From: a virus
IMG/VR virus record: IMGVR_UViG_3300033149_002604
Coordinates: 1-64,000 of that record
Length of the DNA: 64,000 nt
Reading direction: 5' to 3' (one strand)
This document shows, piece by piece, positions 9,483-14,742 of the stretch. The notes beneath the pieces were generated by a model, which worked only from the letters and a program-made list of their open reading frames with translations, did no database searches and was not told the origin of the DNA. Position 1 is the stretch's first letter. Every line of letters begins with the position of its first letter. The position numbers and the translations under genes are program-made.

Positions 9483-9536
9483 AGGTTGGCTTCAGCAAAA
9501 CAATTCTGACTTGGGATCAGACATTATGCCAGCCTG
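9483..9536 (+). ncRNA. Array-appended stem-loop RNA copy 1, with tRNA-Pro(UGG)-like anticodon arm
   Basis: AGGTTGGC/GCCAGCCT stem, TTCAGCAA, inner TCTGA-CTTGGGA-TCAGA (9505-9521). Confidence 0.75.
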
Positions 9537-9551
9537 AAATTTGTGAGAAAG

Positions 9552-9592
9552 GAGCGAGCCAAGTTTCTAAGGACACTCAAAGTAAAAAAGCA
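9552..9592 (+). repeat. TIGR-type array 2 (single degenerate unit)
   Basis: GAGCGAGCCA-N8-AGGACACTCA-N8-AAGCA. Confidence 0.65.
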
Positions 9593-9598
9593 TTCCAA

Positions 9599-9662
9599 AG
9601 GCTGGTTTCAGCAAACATACAAGGCATTTAGCCACCAGTTAAGTAAACCTAGTGCCAGCCTG
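9599..9662 (+). ncRNA. Array-appended stem-loop RNA copy 2
   Basis: AGGCTGGT/GCCAGCCT stem, TTCAGCAA, variable inner hairpin. Confidence 0.7.
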
Positions 9663-9686
9663 TAAATTAACAATTGGAGGGCAGCC

Positions 9687-10046
9687 ATGAAAAAGAAAAA
9701 ATTTATATTGATTTTATTAGGGATTTTACTTTTATTGGTAATAAATAATCCATTTGTATTTCCATCAGATGATGGTGAAACAGGCATAGATTGGGTGTGT
9801 ATAGGTAAACCTTCCTGTGTTAGCGTCTTAACATCCTGCAATTTCCAACCAGTTTCTATTATAAAGACTAAACTTGCTTGGATTATTGTCCGTGGGTATC
9901 CCAAGGTTTCTTTTGAGCATCCTTTATATATCGGGAAACTTGCACATAATTTATTTCTATGTACATCACTTATAGGGGAAGATGCTGATTCACAACCGTT
10001 GTTAGAAGTTCTTTACATAGAAACGAAGGGAAAAATTACCGATTAA
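9687..10046 (+). CDS. Hypothetical protein with N-terminal signal/TM segment
   Basis: MKKKKFILILLGILLLLVI; RBS GGAGG. Confidence 0.65.
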   Translation: MKKKKFILILLGILLLLVINNPFVFPSDDGETGIDWVCIGKPSCVSVLTSCNFQPVSIIKTKLAWIIVRGYPKVSFEHPLYIGKLAHNLFLCTSLIGEDADSQPLLEVLYIETKGKITD

Positions 10047-10057
10047 GTAGGTATTGT

Positions 10058-10480
10058 ATGTCAGACTTTGACCCAAACAGAATAAAACTTTCTATTGATA
10101 ATAGTTCTCTTTATGCACTTGAAAATGAACTGATAGACTATCCCAGACAGCTAGGGGAACTGCATAGGGTTTATTCACAGGCTATAAAGAAAGTAGACAA
10201 ATTTACACTGGAATTGGAAATTTTAACAGCAAAGATTCTAGAGGAGATGCAAAAAGATGCAGAACGCAAGGGACGGCCCTATCCACCATCATCATTACAA
10301 GAAGTCAGGAAAACGAAAGTTCCACTGGATAAAAGATATAAACGATTAAAATTACAGTTAATAGAAGCAACTGAGGAAAAAAATATATTAGGTGGTTTAG
10401 TAAAGGCTTATGAAGCTAAAGGGTATCGGTTACAAGAGCTGATTCAGCTGGCCAATAAACGGACGGATTTTGCGTTTTAA
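10058..10480 (+). CDS. UvsY-like recombination mediator
   Basis: 140-aa helical protein whose size and pattern resemble T4 UvsY; clustered with SSB and RecA/UvsX. Confidence 0.5.
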   Translation: MSDFDPNRIKLSIDNSSLYALENELIDYPRQLGELHRVYSQAIKKVDKFTLELEILTAKILEEMQKDAERKGRPYPPSSLQEVRKTKVPLDKRYKRLKLQLIEATEEKNILGGLVKAYEAKGYRLQELIQLANKRTDFAF

Positions 10481-10481
10481 G

Positions 10482-10554
10482 GAGCCATGAGATGTGACAA
10501 AGACATTAGGTGAAAGCGAGCCACGTTTGTTAAGACACCCACAGTGGGAAAGCG
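10482..10554 (+). repeat. TIGR-type array 3 (1 degenerate + 1 intact unit)
   Basis: GAGCCA-N8-GACAAAGACA-N8-AAGCGAGCCA-CGTTTGTT-AAGACACCCA-CAGTGGGA-AAGCG. Confidence 0.75.
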
Positions 10555-10560
10555 TTCCGA

Positions 10561-10621
10561 AGGTTGGCTTCAGCAAAAATATTATGGACTGATTGCTAAT
10601 TCAGAACCCTATGCCAGCCTG
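10561..10621 (+). ncRNA. Array-appended stem-loop RNA copy 3 (inner loop TTGCTAA, Ser(GCU)-like)
   Basis: AGGTTGGC/GCCAGCCT stem, TTCAGCAA, inner CTGA...TCAG. Confidence 0.7.
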
Positions 10622-10637
10622 ATACTAATAAATAAAG

Positions 10638-10750
10638 GAGCGAGCCATTCCTCACAAGACACCCAAAAAATGCAAGCGAGCCACTGTGTCTAAGACACCC
10701 ATTTTCGTCAAGCGAGCCACGAAAAATAAGACACCCAAACCCAATAAGCG
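10638..10750 (+). repeat. TIGR-type array 4 (3 units), directly upstream of tasH
   Basis: Exact alternation of AAGCGAGCCA and AAGACACCCA with 8-nt variable spacers, 36-nt period. Confidence 0.92.
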
Positions 10751-12795: not shown

Positions 12796-12804
12796 TAGGA
12801 TTTA

Positions 12805-12912
12805 AGCCAAGGTTTTTAAGATACCCAATAATGGCAAGCGAGCCACGAGATGTAAGACACCTATTGTTTGTAAGCGAGCCACAGTTGTTAAGACACCCAA
12901 ACAACTTAAGCG
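12805..12912 (+). repeat. TIGR-type array 6 (3 units)
   Basis: Same repeats, with single-base variants AAGATACCCA and AAGACACCTA. Confidence 0.88.
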
Positions 12913-12918
12913 TTCCGA

Positions 12919-12975
12919 AGGCTGACTTCAGCAAAAATATTATCTAGTTTGTAAGTGACAAACCTTGTCAGCCTG
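12919..12975 (+). ncRNA. Array-appended stem-loop RNA copy 4 (compensatory change in outer stem)
   Basis: AGGCTGAC/GTCAGCCT perfect stem with G-C to A-U covariation; TTCAGCAA; inner GTTTGT/ACAAAC. Confidence 0.75.
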
Positions 12976-12981
12976 TTTTAT

Positions 12982-13058
12982 GAGCGAGCCAAAAGAACAA
13001 AGACACCCAAAAGCCGAAAGCGAGCCATATGCTTGAAGACACCCACAACCATTAAGCG
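12982..13058 (+). repeat. TIGR-type array 7 (2 units)
   Basis: Two exact 36-nt units. Confidence 0.88.
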
Positions 13059-13064
13059 TTTTGA

Positions 13065-13118
13065 AGGTTGGTTTCAGCAAAACTATTATGGACTGCAAAT
13101 CCACTTTTCGCCAGCCTG
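13065..13118 (+). ncRNA. Array-appended stem-loop RNA copy 5, with tRNA-Cys(GCA)-like anticodon arm
   Basis: AGGTTGGT/GCCAGCCT stem, TTCAGCAA, inner TGGA-CTGCAAA-TCCA (13089-13103). Confidence 0.75.
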
Positions 13119-13132
13119 AAAGGAGTTAGATC

Positions 13133-14545
13133 ATGAAAAAGACAAAAGAAAATGGCACACAATACGAATTTTCGCTTGATCACGCTTTGGAATTTTTTTC
13201 CAAAGCAGGGTCGTTATTCACTGGTAGACAATCCTTCTACCAAGATGAAGAATCTGCCTTATCCCTTTTCCAGAAAAGTTGGGTAGTGGATAAAGAAATT
13301 ACTATGAAATTGTTGTTTTGGCTACGGGACTGTAGGGGTGGTGCAGGGAATCGAAGTGGGTTCAGGGAATGTATTGCTTGGTTAGCATCAGATTCCCCAG
13401 AATGGGTAGAAGCTAATATCCACTTAGTCCCTGTACATGGTAGATGGGATGACCTACGGGCACTATTTGGAACACCTTGTGAATCGGAAGCAGCAAGACT
13501 TTGGGCTAGTGCTATCCTTAATAAAGAAGTTCTGGCAGCGAAGTGGGCAGACAGGAAGGATAAACCGTTACGCCACCTACTGCATATGAACGAAAAATTT
13601 TTCAGGAAACTTCTTGCTGCTATCAGAAAAGACCATATTGTTGAACATAAGATGTGTCATAATTTATGGAAGGAAATAGAATACGACAAAGTTCCTTCTG
13701 TTGCAATGGCAAGATACACAAATGCTTTTACACGGCATGATGGTGAAAGGTTTGAAAAGTATAAGGAAGCACTGAAACAGAACAGGACTACTATCAGGGC
13801 TGATGTTCTTTTCCCACATGACTGTGTTCGAACTGCATTTTCTGGGGATAAGGAAATTGCAGATGCACAATTTGAAGCACTACCAGATTATATAGGGAAT
13901 ACTGATGAAAAAATAATAGTAATTGCGGATACTTCATTTTCTATGAATGTATATGTATCTGGTTCCGTTCGGGCAGTTGATATTTCCCAAGGGCTTGCCC
14001 TTTATTGTTCAGCAAAAATTCCAAAAGATAATCCATTCCATAAGAAGTTCTTGTCTTTTTCTAACGAAGGGGAATTTAAGAATTGGAATGGTATGAAGTT
14101 TTCTGAAGCGGTACGTGATCGTGGGATATTTGATGGTGCAATGGGGACAACTAGGATAGACAGGGCATTGGATTTGATTCTAAAGACTGCAAAGTTTTTT
14201 TATTTAACCCAAGACCAGATGCCAACAATGTTGCTAATTGTTTCTGATATGCAGTTTCATGAAGGTGTGGATGGTGACGGAACGGAAGTTGAAAAAGCAT
14301 TGAAAAAGTGGACTGAAGCTGGGTATGAAATTCCTAAGATCGTGTATTGGAATACTGCTGGGTATGCAGGTTCACCAGCTACGGTTAAAAGTAGAAACGT
14401 TGGGCTTGTATCGGGGTTTTCACCTTCTATCCTGAAAAGCATTCTTGCTGCGGAGGATTTTTCTCCAGAAGGCATTATGCTCAGGGCACTAGAGAAATAC
14501 GAAGTTGTAGTTCCTATGGATATGATAACTAAACCAATTGATTAA
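13133..14545 (+). CDS. DUF2828-family protein (TROVE/Ro60-like helical domain + vWA domain)
   Basis: LFWLRDCRGGAG, GRWDDL, AAKW, YDKVPSVAM; vWA MIDAS IADTSFSM, IVSDMQF, PKIVYWN, LVSGFSP. Confidence 0.85.
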   Translation: MKKTKENGTQYEFSLDHALEFFSKAGSLFTGRQSFYQDEESALSLFQKSWVVDKEITMKLLFWLRDCRGGAGNRSGFRECIAWLASDSPEWVEANIHLVPVHGRWDDLRALFGTPCESEAARLWASAILNKEVLAAKWADRKDKPLRHLLHMNEKFFRKLLAAIRKDHIVEHKMCHNLWKEIEYDKVPSVAMARYTNAFTRHDGERFEKYKEALKQNRTTIRADVLFPHDCVRTAFSGDKEIADAQFEALPDYIGNTDEKIIVIADTSFSMNVYVSGSVRAVDISQGLALYCSAKIPKDNPFHKKFLSFSNEGEFKNWNGMKFSEAVRDRGIFDGAMGTTRIDRALDLILKTAKFFYLTQDQMPTMLLIVSDMQFHEGVDGDGTEVEKALKKWTEAGYEIPKIVYWNTAGYAGSPATVKSRNVGLVSGFSPSILKSILAAEDFSPEGIMLRALEKYEVVVPMDMITKPID

Positions 14546-14560
14546 AGGTTCTATGGTAAA

Positions 14561-14673
14561 AAGCGAGCCATGATGCTCAAGACACCCAGACGACTGAAGC
14601 GAGCCAGGTTCTTCAAGACACCCATGGACAATAAGCGAGCCACTGGAGGCAAGACACCCAGCCTTTTCAAGCG
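14561..14673 (+). repeat. TIGR-type array 8 (3 units)
   Basis: Three exact 36-nt units. Confidence 0.92.
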
Positions 14674-14679
14674 TTCCGA

Positions 14680-14742
14680 AGGTTGGCTTCAGCAAGATTA
14701 CGAAGACTTAGACATGAACTAGGTAACTTCAATGCCAGCCTG
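14680..14742 (+). ncRNA. Array-appended stem-loop RNA copy 6
   Basis: AGGTTGGC/GCCAGCCT stem, TTCAGCAA, inner GAAG/CTTC and CTTAG-ACATGAA-CTAGG (7-nt loop). Confidence 0.72.

What the first reader, a model, noticed from the sequence alone, without database searches (positions are those of the whole stretch)
9483..14742. Variable inner hairpins of the repeated RNA mimic different tRNA anticodon arms
Seen: copy 1 has TCTGA-CTTGGGA-TCAGA (5 bp + 7-nt loop CU-UGG-GA, a Pro anticodon with G37). Copy 5 has TGGA-CTGCAAA-TCCA (CU-GCA-AA, Cys). Copy 3 has loop TT-GCT-AA (Ser-like, bulged stem). Copy 6 has a 5-bp stem and 7-nt loop ACATGAA (non-canonical). Copies 2 and 4 are not convincing. A constant scaffold with a swappable anticodon-like cassette suggests (inference) a panel of decoys or substrates for host anticodon nucleases (PrrC/RloC, VapC, PARIS-type) or for tRNA-modifying enzymes.
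Basis: partly seen in the sequence, partly recalled or inferred. Interest (0 to 1): 0.8.

Follow-up and report, generated by a model that had tools for sequence, protein, structure and literature searches.

The report
tRNA-arm mimics on Ro60-partner phage RNAs
Six small phage RNAs share one conserved "handle" that, across many phages, lies beside a gene for a Ro60-shaped RNA-binding protein. In a significant minority of family members, two to three of them here, the variable middle copies a tRNA anticodon arm, pointing to an undescribed virus RNA-protein particle that imitates tRNA parts.

Summary
Six + strand copies (9479-14744) of a 60-70-nt RNA share an 8-bp closing stem, the motif UUCAGCAA and a 3' CUG.

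The inner hairpins are as described:
- Copies 1 (5 bp, loop CUUGGGA) and 5 (4 bp, CUGCAAA) have canonical anticodon-arm form.
- Copy 3 is close (8-nt loop).
- Copy 6 has a non-canonical 7-nt loop.
- Copies 2 and 4 have 5-nt loops.

The scaffold is not private to this phage. A covariance model finds it in 45 of 80 viral loci that encode a DUF2828 protein, always on the gene's strand and mostly within 600 nt. That protein folds as Ro60.

Among 108 distinct homologues:
- 24 have a 7-nt loop Y-U-NNN-R (2-3 expected).
- 17 read CU-NNN-AA (0.5 expected).
- Others carry T-arm-like hairpins or a whole tRNA body.

tRNA-part mimicry is therefore real, but in a minority.

Best reading: these are partner ("Y-like") RNAs of a Ro60-like protein. 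The decoy role is untested. The handle matches Dictyostelium Class I RNAs. Peculiar here: each copy directly follows a TIGR guide array. This scan has met the RNA family before on other DNA.

The parts
9479..9538 (+). Handle RNA copy 1. Closing stem 9483-9490 with 9528-9535. UUCAGCAA at 9491-9498. Inner hairpin 9505-9521 (5 bp, loop CUUGGGA; Pro-like UGG with G37).
   Evidence: CM R1 57.5 bits; fold; sequence
9595..9664 (+). Handle RNA copy 2. Inner hairpin 9626-9644 (7 bp, 5-nt loop), not anticodon-like. Followed by the ribosome site and start of ORF 9687-10046.
   Evidence: CM 60.9 bits; fold z -2.3
10557..10623 (+). Handle RNA copy 3. Inner hairpin 10589-10604 (4 bp, 8-nt loop UUGCUAAU; Ser-GCU-like 7-mer plus one U).
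   Evidence: CM 67.1 bits; fold
12915..12977 (+). Handle RNA copy 4. The closing stem carries a compensatory A-U in place of G-C. Inner hairpin 12947-12963 (6 bp, 5-nt loop).
   Evidence: CM 60.1 bits; alignment
13061..13120 (+). Handle RNA copy 5, directly upstream of the DUF2828 start. Inner hairpin 13089-13103 (4 bp, loop CUGCAAA; Cys-like GCA with A37 A38).
   Evidence: CM 55.9 bits; fold
14676..14744 (+). Handle RNA copy 6, directly downstream of the DUF2828 gene. Inner hairpin 14706-14724 (6 bp, loop ACAUGAA, non-canonical). A metagenome relative has the same stem with loop CUGCUAA.
   Evidence: CM 66.5 bits; fold; contig letters (table 5c)
13133..14545 (+). DUF2828 + DUF7788 protein (470 aa) with a DxSxS MIDAS motif. 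Predicted fold is Ro60/TROVE ring plus vWA. Proposed protein partner of the handle RNAs.
   Evidence: Pfam 9.5e-33; AF2 pLDDT 90.6; Foldseek top 12 hits all Ro60/TROVE, E 6e-9 to 1e-4, TM up to 0.62
10770..11660 (+). TasH (HNH + Nop-like domain), effector of the TIGR arrays that abut the handle RNAs.
   Evidence: 51.6% identity over 96% to the Salicola phage CGphi29 protein, the SpTasH of Faure 2025; Pfam Transposase_20
9404..9478 (+). TIGR array (units AAGCGAGCCA-N8-AAGACACCCA-N8). It ends in a truncated edge repeat AAGCG that runs into copy 1.
9552..9594 (+). Short, degenerate TIGR unit ahead of copy 2.
10514..10556 (+). One TIGR unit ahead of copy 3.
12800..12914 (+). TIGR array ahead of copy 4.
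12982..13060 (+). TIGR array ahead of copy 5.
14561..14675 (+). TIGR array ahead of copy 6.
9358..9385 (+). Sigma-70-like promoter (TTGACA, 16 nt, TATTTT) ahead of the first array and copy 1. A consensus match only.

Best explanation
The six repeats are small non-coding "handle" RNAs. Each has the form AAG, a 7-8-bp closing stem, U-N-CAGCAA, a variable module, the stem's return strand, then CUG. They belong to a widespread phage RNA family that sits beside genes for a Ro60-like (DUF2828, TROVE + vWA) protein, here 13133-14545.

Inferred: the handle is the protein's binding site, as the conserved helix of Y RNAs is for Ro60, and the variable module is what the particle displays.

Shown: in a significant minority of the family the module copies a part of tRNA. 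This can be an anticodon arm (5-bp stem, 7-nt loop C/U-U-NNN-A/G-A, with many different triplets), a T arm, or a whole tRNA body without its acceptor stem. In this window two modules are canonical anticodon arms (Pro-like UGG/G37 and Cys-like GCA), one is nearly so (Ser-like GCU), and three are not.

Inferred: the modules let the Ro-like particle engage proteins that recognise tRNA, such as host anticodon nucleases or tRNA modification and repair enzymes, during the conflict over RNA damage. They would act as bait, competitor or tether.

In this phage lineage alone, each handle RNA also sits where a TIGR guide array normally has its terminator. Array and handle RNA are therefore probably made from one transcript and cut apart.
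For: Scaffold structure
- The closing stem is 94.7% paired in 26 sequences, with 32 double-change cells and 5 of 8 pairs covarying. 0 of 500 shuffles reach this, and slid controls give 18-48% paired.

Link to DUF2828
- All 5 near-complete virus records found by the RNA pattern alone encode DUF2828. Two TasH phages without the RNA lack it.
- In 80 DUF2828 loci the model gives 89 hits, all 89 on the gene's strand. 61 lie within 600 nt of the gene in +/-10-kb flanks, and 45 loci have at least one hit.
- The DUF2828 model has pLDDT 90.6. Its 12 best PDB matches are all Ro60/TROVE, full length.

tRNA mimicry
- Counts are 24 against 2-3 expected and 17 against 0.5 expected, with 19 distinct loops, 15 triplets and 14 sources.
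- The loops are the same 7-mers as those of real tRNAs in the same loci.
- One handle RNA encloses a tRNA body scoring 55.2 bits on RF00005 with only the acceptor stem broken.
- There are sub-threshold YrlA (RF02553) matches on handle RNAs with T arms: 32.1 bits, E 1.7e-4, and 24.5 bits.

Context
- The closest relative (DUF2828 70% identical) has a promoter, four handle RNAs and a 67-nt tRNA-like gene ahead of DUF2828, with no TIGR.
- Bacterial and phage Ro60 genes are known to lie next to Y RNAs with a tRNA-like domain (PMC4201824).
- The phage also carries an RlaP RNA-repair-type nucleotidyltransferase and a Tad3 anti-defence gene.
Against: - No experiment or RNA data: expression, ends and binding are all inferred.
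- 35 of 80 DUF2828 loci gave no hit at E <= 0.1, and some handle RNAs lie in tRNA clusters far from the gene.
- Only about 22% of members have a canonical anticodon-like loop. Many have A-rich or other hairpins, so mimicry is not a defining property of the family.
- Related sequences are not independent, so the control counts overstate significance somewhat.
- None of the window's six copies matches any Rfam family, YrlA included.
- The alignments used for pair counts were fitted to the model.
Confidence: 0.6

Rival explanations
1. The anticodon-like hairpins are decoys or competitive substrates that soak up or inhibit host anticodon nucleases (PrrC/RloC, VapC-type, colicin-like, PARIS-type), each cassette matching one targeted tRNA.
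For: - The loops are exact copies of real anticodon loops and cover many triplets, including UUU (Lys), CAU (Met), UGA, GUU and UGG.
- The element is in a phage that also carries Tad3 and RlaP.
- Ro60 systems are tied to RNA damage and repair (PMC7824862, PMC7790460).
Against: - Untested.
- Most family members lack an anticodon-like loop, and some show T arms instead.
- From general knowledge: several anticodon nucleases need base modifications or the whole tRNA.
- No RtcB was found in this record, and only a sub-threshold RNA-ligase match.
- No link to any host defence gene could be examined, as the host is unknown.
Confidence: 0.2
2. The tRNA likeness is a relic. The family arose from tRNA or YrlA-like genes in phage tRNA clusters and was whittled down, so the surviving arms only stabilise the RNA (a U-turn loop is a sturdy cap) and are read by nothing.
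For: - There is a graded series from a whole tRNA body, through T-arm or anticodon-arm-only forms, to short A-rich interiors.
- Many copies lie inside tRNA clusters.
- Half of the window's copies have no tRNA-like feature.
Against: The frame C-U-NNN-A-A and the 5-bp stem persist while stems and triplets differ widely among 14 sources. That is what selection on shape, not decay, would give. The G37-after-G36 pattern is also kept among the canonical loops.
Confidence: 0.15
3. The element belongs to the TIGR system. It would be the array's terminator, or a 3' processing or stabilising structure, and the inner hairpin varies because nothing constrains it.
For: - 6 of 8 arrays in the window run straight from a truncated edge repeat into the element.
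Against: - None of the six is terminator-like, with no GC-rich stem plus U tract. Three are followed at once by a ribosome site and a gene on the same strand.
- The element is absent from the TasH relatives L008-L010 and from Salicola phage CGphi29, whose array ends in a classical terminator.
- No DUF2828 locus fetched from another record holds a TasH gene, though 45 of the 80 scanned hold the element.
Confidence: 0.05

Closest known systems
Ro60 (Rsr/TROVE2) with Y RNAs, especially bacterial and phage YrlA (Rfam RF02553; Chen et al. 2014, PMC4201824; Thermus phage phiLo Ro60, PMC12135203)
   Same: - A ring-shaped Ro60-fold protein gene has small structured RNA genes beside it on the same strand, often several per locus.
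- The RNAs pair their 5' and 3' ends in a conserved stem.
- The variable part imitates tRNA.
- Some relatives of the window's RNA give weak YrlA-model matches.
   Different: - The protein is DUF2828, not Pfam TROVE. It has 12-18% identity to solved Ro60s and was recognised only by fold.
- The handle (AAG-stem-UNCAGCAA ... stem-CUG) is unlike the Ro-binding helix of Y RNAs.
- The RNAs are shorter (about 45-75 nt for most).
- The usual mimic is a lone anticodon arm, which S. Typhimurium YrlA is not described as having. In D. radiodurans Yrn1 only a 6-nt-loop version was modelled (PMC4201824).
- The window's copies score nothing on RF02553.
Class I RNAs of dictyostelid social amoebae (Kjellin et al. 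2021, PMC7919456)
   Same: - The design is the same: about 60 nt, start AAG, a short covarying stem joining the ends, the conserved motif CCUUACAGCAA right after the 5' strand, a variable rest, and the end CUGU.
- The phage consensus U-N-CAGCAA and the terminal CUG coincide with it.
   Different: - They are eukaryotic nuclear genes with their own promoter element. They were reported as unique to Dictyostelia, bind an RRM protein (Rnp1A), and have a role in development.
- No Ro-like partner or tRNA mimicry was reported.
- Common descent versus convergence is not settled here. I did not test whether Dictyostelium has a DUF2828 gene.
TIGR-Tas arrays and their terminators (Faure et al. 2025, PMC12045711)
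   Same: The element occupies the place after the last, truncated edge repeat. The arrays and TasH here are close to the characterised Salicola phage system.
   Different: That system ends in a plain GC-rich hairpin plus a U tract. The element here has no U tract, has a conserved single-stranded motif, and occurs in many phages without any TIGR.
tRNA anticodon stem-loop
   Same: 5-bp stem, 7-nt loop, C/U32, U33, purine 37, A38. G37 follows G36. The loops are identical to those of co-resident tRNA genes.
   Different: There is no D arm, T arm or acceptor in the window's copies. Copy 5 has 4 bp and copy 3 an 8-nt loop. Nothing shows that they are modified or read as tRNA.

Membership tests
DUF2828-associated handle RNA family (unnamed; not in Rfam 15) | 7-8-bp closing stem joining the 5' and 3' ends, kept by compensatory changes | tested here: met
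   All six copies pair fully. Copy 4 has an A-U where the others have G-C. Family-wide: 94.7% paired, 32 double changes.
DUF2828-associated handle RNA family (unnamed; not in Rfam 15) | AAG before the stem, U-N-CAGCAA directly after its 5' strand, and CUG after its 3' strand | tested here: met
   These are invariant columns in the alignment of the six copies plus seven homologues. The CM scores are 55.9-67.1 bits.
DUF2828-associated handle RNA family (unnamed; not in Rfam 15) | Same-strand neighbourhood of a DUF2828 (Ro60-fold) gene | tested here: met
   Copies 5 and 6 flank gene 13133-14545. The other copies lie within 3.7 kb on the same strand.
Y RNA / YrlA (RF00019, RF02553) | Match to the curated covariance model | tested here: not met
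   No match over 9300-14800 even at E <= 5. Only longer relatives give sub-threshold YrlA hits.
Y RNA / YrlA (RF00019, RF02553) | Bound by a Ro60 protein | not testable with these tools
   Only gene neighbourhood and the protein's predicted fold are available.
Y RNA / YrlA (RF00019, RF02553) | tRNA-like domain with T and D arms | tested here: not met
   The window's copies have at most an anticodon-like arm. T and D arms occur in relatives only.
Dictyostelid Class I RNA | Start AAG/G, short stem, 11-nt motif CCUUACAGCAA, end CUGU, about 60 nt | tested here: inconclusive
   AAG, the stem, the length and CUG(U/A) are met. Six of the 11 motif positions (the CAGCAA core) are shared in the window's copies and 7-8 (UACAGCAA) in relatives. 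The promoter element and taxon do not apply.
tRNA anticodon arm (shape only) | 5-bp stem closing a 7-nt loop | tested here: inconclusive
   Copy 1 meets it. Copy 5 has 4 bp + 7 nt, copy 6 has 6 bp + 7 nt, and copy 3 has 4 bp + 8 nt. Copies 2 and 4 have 5-nt loops.
tRNA anticodon arm (shape only) | Y32, U33, purine 37 (and A38) | tested here: inconclusive
   Met in copies 1 and 5, and in copy 3 if one U is bulged. Not met in copy 6 (A32, C33). Family-wide enrichment is 24 against 2-3 expected.
Rho-independent terminator of a TIGR array | GC-rich hairpin followed by a U tract | tested here: not met
   The terminator scan flags none of the six. Only copy 4 is followed by UUUU. Compare the true terminator in CGphi29.
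TIGR-Tas, dual-repeat type (context) | 36-nt units of two alternating repeats with two short spacers, next to a Tas (Nop-domain) gene | tested here: met
   17 and 19 repeat matches, all on the + strand and only within 9400-14700. TasH is 51.6% identical to the CGphi29 protein, and the repeats are near-identical to that phage's.

The most novel reading that the evidence does not exclude
A phage Ro60-like particle displays a panel of interchangeable tRNA anticodon arms (and T arms) as baits that neutralise or sense host tRNA-cutting defences. In this lineage it has also become coupled to an RNA-guided TIGR-TasH system: guide arrays and handle RNAs are made as one transcript, so TasH cutting in the last edge repeat frees the handle RNA, or guide-handle chimeras bring the two particles together.
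Probability: 0.15. Interest if true: 0.9.

Novelty: new variant of a known kind. Interest (0 to 1): 0.75.

Why it matters
Ro60 and its Y RNAs are an old puzzle. The bacterial ones imitate tRNA, yet why is unknown.

Here a second, much more compact RNA design travels with a divergent Ro60-fold protein in hundreds of phage contigs. I found it in neither Rfam 15 nor the papers searched. It often reduces the mimicry to a single, exchangeable anticodon arm, which turns the question "what does the tRNA likeness do?" into a simple, testable one: swap the loop, then ask who binds or cuts it.

The same handle marks the unexplained Class I RNAs of social amoebae. A partner protein and a function found in phages could therefore explain those too.

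The contact with TIGR guide arrays in this phage is, as far as I could see, without precedent. It may bear on how such arrays are expressed and processed.

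Tried and rejected
- Rfam gave nothing on the six copies, either at gathering thresholds over the whole window or at E <= 5 over 9300-14800.
- blastn of 9300-15200 against 50,697 phage records found only a short vWA-gene match in a Campylobacter phage.
- The TasH relatives from IMG/VR (L008-L010) and Salicola phage CGphi29 have TIGR arrays but no handle RNA, even with CM filters off.
- About half of the 24 exact-pattern hits in viral contigs were coding-sequence look-alikes and were dropped.
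- The seventh pattern hit in the genome, at 94691, is chance.
- Sequence search of the DUF2828 profile against PDB gave only marginal TROVE/Ro60 matches (E about 0.1-0.3) over the vWA part. The fold search was needed.
- RtcB is absent from this 79%-complete record, and there is only a sub-threshold RNA-ligase-family match at 86300.
- Sequencing runs: no RNA holder is listed. The DNA holders are vent, sediment and marine metagenome contigs of relatives with small word shares, so they say nothing on expression or on RNA ends.
- A literature search for DUF2828 returned only plant and tardigrade papers. One search for the early Class I RNA papers was too broad and useless.
- I considered a riboswitch or translational leader, since three copies sit just before start codons. 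I rejected it as the main reading because the downstream genes are unrelated and many family members lie between tRNA genes or after the DUF2828 gene.
- I considered a stem-loop type tigRNA. I rejected it because the element occurs without any Tas gene in all other loci.

Full report
WHAT IS IN THE SEQUENCE

The window is part of a 96.9-kb IMG/VR virus record. Around the finding lies a replication and recombination module, all on the + strand:
- UDG-exo-PolA, 6936-9353
- a gp32-like protein, 11908-12795
- a clamp loader
- a UvsX/RecA-like protein

Two kinds of repeat occupy the intergenic spacers between 9400 and 14750.

The first has a 36-nt period: AAGCGAGCCA, 8 nt, AAGACACCCA, 8 nt. There are 17 and 19 matches to the two halves, all on the + strand and only in this region.

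It has six copies, at 9479-9538, 9595-9664, 10557-10623, 12915-12977, 13061-13120 and 14676-14744. Each has:
- an 8-bp closing stem (AGGYUGRY with GYCAGCCU, including a compensatory A-U in copy 4)
- the single-stranded motif UUCAGCAA straight after the 5' strand
- a variable inner hairpin
- CUG after the 3' strand

THE 36-nt ARRAYS ARE TIGR ARRAYS

- Gene 10770-11660 is 51.6% identical over 96% of its length to the Salicola phage CGphi29 protein. That is the SpTasH studied by Faure et al. 2025 (PMC12045711).
- That phage's array uses almost the same two repeats.
[quoted passage not shown] CGphi29 shows just that.

In the window, six of eight arrays instead run from the truncated repeat AAGCG into the stem-loop element. 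The scan flags none of the six as terminator-like, and three are followed directly by a ribosome site and a gene. TasH relatives at 60% and 49% identity (L008-L010) and CGphi29 lack the element, even with the model's filters off.

THE ELEMENT IS AN INDEPENDENT, WIDESPREAD RNA FAMILY

An exact pattern built from the scaffold found true homologues in unrelated viral contigs without TIGR arrays. They lay between tRNA genes, or about 100 nt upstream of a DUF2828 gene. I built covariance models from 13 and then 26 sequences.

The closing stem is well supported:
- 94.7% of cells pair.
- 5 of 8 pairs show changes on both sides, in 32 cells.
- No shuffle in 500 reaches this.
- Slid controls give 18-48% paired.
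- One caution: the alignment was fitted to the model.

The link to DUF2828 is strong:
- All five near-complete records found through the RNA alone encode a DUF2828 protein. The two TasH records without the RNA do not.
- In 80 viral loci fetched through the protein (more than 553 exist), the model gave 89 hits at E <= 0.1.
- All 89 hits are on the strand of the gene. 61 lie within 600 nt of it, although 10 kb was searched on each side. 45 loci hold at least one.

The protein of the window (13133-14545) folds with pLDDT 90.6. Its 12 best PDB matches are all Ro60/TROVE proteins over their full length: frog and human Ro60, Thermus phage phiLo Ro60 and Deinococcus Rsr, with E from 6e-9 to 1e-4 and TM up to 0.62.

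The arrangement therefore parallels Ro60 genes with adjacent Y RNA genes, which are known in more than 250 bacteria and phages (PMC4201824). The closest relative of this phage (DUF2828 70% identical; L082) has a promoter, four handle RNAs and a 67-nt tRNA-like gene just ahead of DUF2828, with no TIGR array. No DUF2828 locus fetched from another record holds a TasH gene. The junction with TIGR arrays is thus a peculiarity of this lineage. Contigs of metagenome relatives show the same repeats with different unit numbers.

DO THE INNER HAIRPINS IMITATE ANTICODON ARMS?

I pooled 108 distinct family members and looked at the sequence after CAGCAA.

| Feature | Observed | Dinucleotide shuffles | Random same-strand windows of the same loci |
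|---|---|---|---|
| Hairpin of at least 4 bp with a 7-nt loop | 55 | 25.3 +/- 4.0 | 30.5 +/- 4.2 |
| Loop Y-U-NNN-R | 24 | 2.0 +/- 1.3 | 3.1 +/- 1.7 |
| Loop CU-NNN-AA | 17 | 0.5 | 0.5 |

No control run reached the observed values.

Further points:
- Composition of the 7-nt loops: C32 49%, U33 60%, A38 71%, against background C 16%, U 27% and A 45%. Position 34 is evenly mixed.
- Most canonical loops sit on stems of exactly 5 bp.
- The 24 cases come from 14 sources, with 19 different loops and 15 triplets.
- Among the loops that fit Y-U-NNN-R, G37 is seen only after G36 (UGG twice among all 7-nt loops, UUG once), as in tRNAs that carry m1G37. That comparison rests on general knowledge.
- Real tRNA genes in the same loci have the same 7-mers on similar stems.
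- Other members carry T-loop hairpins (UUCGAAU and the like).
- One member (L043) encloses a body that scores 55.2 bits on Rfam's tRNA model, with only the acceptor pairs broken. The handle takes the acceptor's place.
- Handle RNAs with T arms give sub-threshold YrlA matches.
- A low-depth metagenome contig of a relative has copy 6's stem with the canonical loop CUGCUAA in place of ACAUGAA.

It is still a minority trait, found in about a fifth of the family. Many interiors are A-rich or end in other hairpins. In this window only copies 1 and 5 are canonical, and copy 3 is close. Relatedness among sequences inflates the statistics to some degree.

HOW IT MOST LIKELY WORKS

Shown:
- a conserved, covarying handle
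- its neighbourhood with a Ro60-fold gene
- recurrent copying of tRNA parts in the variable module

Inferred:
- The handle binds the protein.
- The module is displayed to tRNA-recognising proteins.
- The setting is the conflict over RNA damage. Ro60 systems sit in RNA-repair operons (PMC7790460), jumbo phages carry TROVE proteins among repair genes (PMC7824862), and this phage has an RlaP-type nucleotidyltransferase and a Tad3 anti-Thoeris gene.

The decoy idea is one concrete version of this. It remains open.

COMPARISON WITH WHAT IS KNOWN

- The function-level analogue is Ro60 with YrlA-type Y RNAs.
- The sequence-level analogue is the Class I RNAs of Dictyostelia. These are about 60 nt, start with AAG, and have a short covarying stem, the motif CCUUACAGCAA, a variable rest and the end CUGU. 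I read this in the paper and its sequence files (PMC7919456), after a lead from earlier notes of this scan.
- That paper reports Class I RNAs as unique to dictyostelids.
- I found no paper linking DUF2828 to an RNA.
- Rfam 15 has no matching family.
- The scan's own notes show that the family was met many times on other DNA.

VERDICT

The thing itself is a new variant of the Ro/Y-RNA theme. In this phage it has an unprecedented physical junction to TIGR guide arrays.

Noticed in passing
window 10638-10752 and 11654-11850: Two TIGR arrays do not end in a handle RNA. The first runs into the ribosome site of tasH. The second degenerates into a strong sigma-70-like promoter (11848-11876, 11 of 12 matches) ahead of the gp32-like gene.
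   Followed up: partly
window 9404-14675 versus L163:4900-5290 (Salicola phage CGphi29): The two TIGR repeats are nearly the same in both phages (AAGCGAGCCA; AAGACACCCA against AAGACAACCA), although the TasH proteins are only 52% identical.
   Followed up: partly
window 1719-2150: A 143-aa protein matches Pfam Tad3, a type I Thoeris inhibitor, at E 4.7e-34. It is an anti-defence gene in the early region.
   Followed up: no
window 21461-22459: A 332-aa protein matches RlaP (RNA repair pathway Pol-beta family nucleotidyltransferase) at E 3.9e-15. It fits an RNA-damage theme, but I did not examine it further.
   Followed up: no
L082:9730-9796 and L093:9726-9792: A 67-nt tRNA-like gene sits between handle RNAs upstream of DUF2828. 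It has a 7-bp acceptor stem and a T arm, and ARAGORN calls it tRNA-Gly(acc). It is too short for a normal tRNA.
   Followed up: no
L043:1501-1603 (-) and 1384-1497 (-): Two adjacent handle RNAs have large interiors. One is a tRNA-Arg(UCU)-like body with D, anticodon and T arms but no acceptor pairing. The other has a T arm and a weak YrlA match.
   Followed up: partly
L086:14171-14247, L094:13682-13755, L043:952-1028: tRNA genes with anticodon CUA (amber-reading; ARAGORN labels them Pyl) lie a few kb from DUF2828 in three unrelated phage loci. This may be a sign of TAG recoding or suppression.
   Followed up: no
A6 members such as L152:16513, L099:17919, L153:18826, L108:11643: A second recurrent interior type has a U-rich run, then UAGG or UGG, then a long A run (for example UUAGGAAAAA). 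It is unlike any tRNA part and may mark a subfamily with another role.
   Followed up: no
window 6936-9353: The DNA polymerase A carries an N-terminal uracil-DNA-glycosylase-superfamily domain ahead of the 3'-5' exonuclease domain.
   Followed up: no
window 47889-48207 (-): Rfam finds a group I intron (66.6 bits) in the structural-gene region. Earlier notes place it in the tail tube gene.
   Followed up: no
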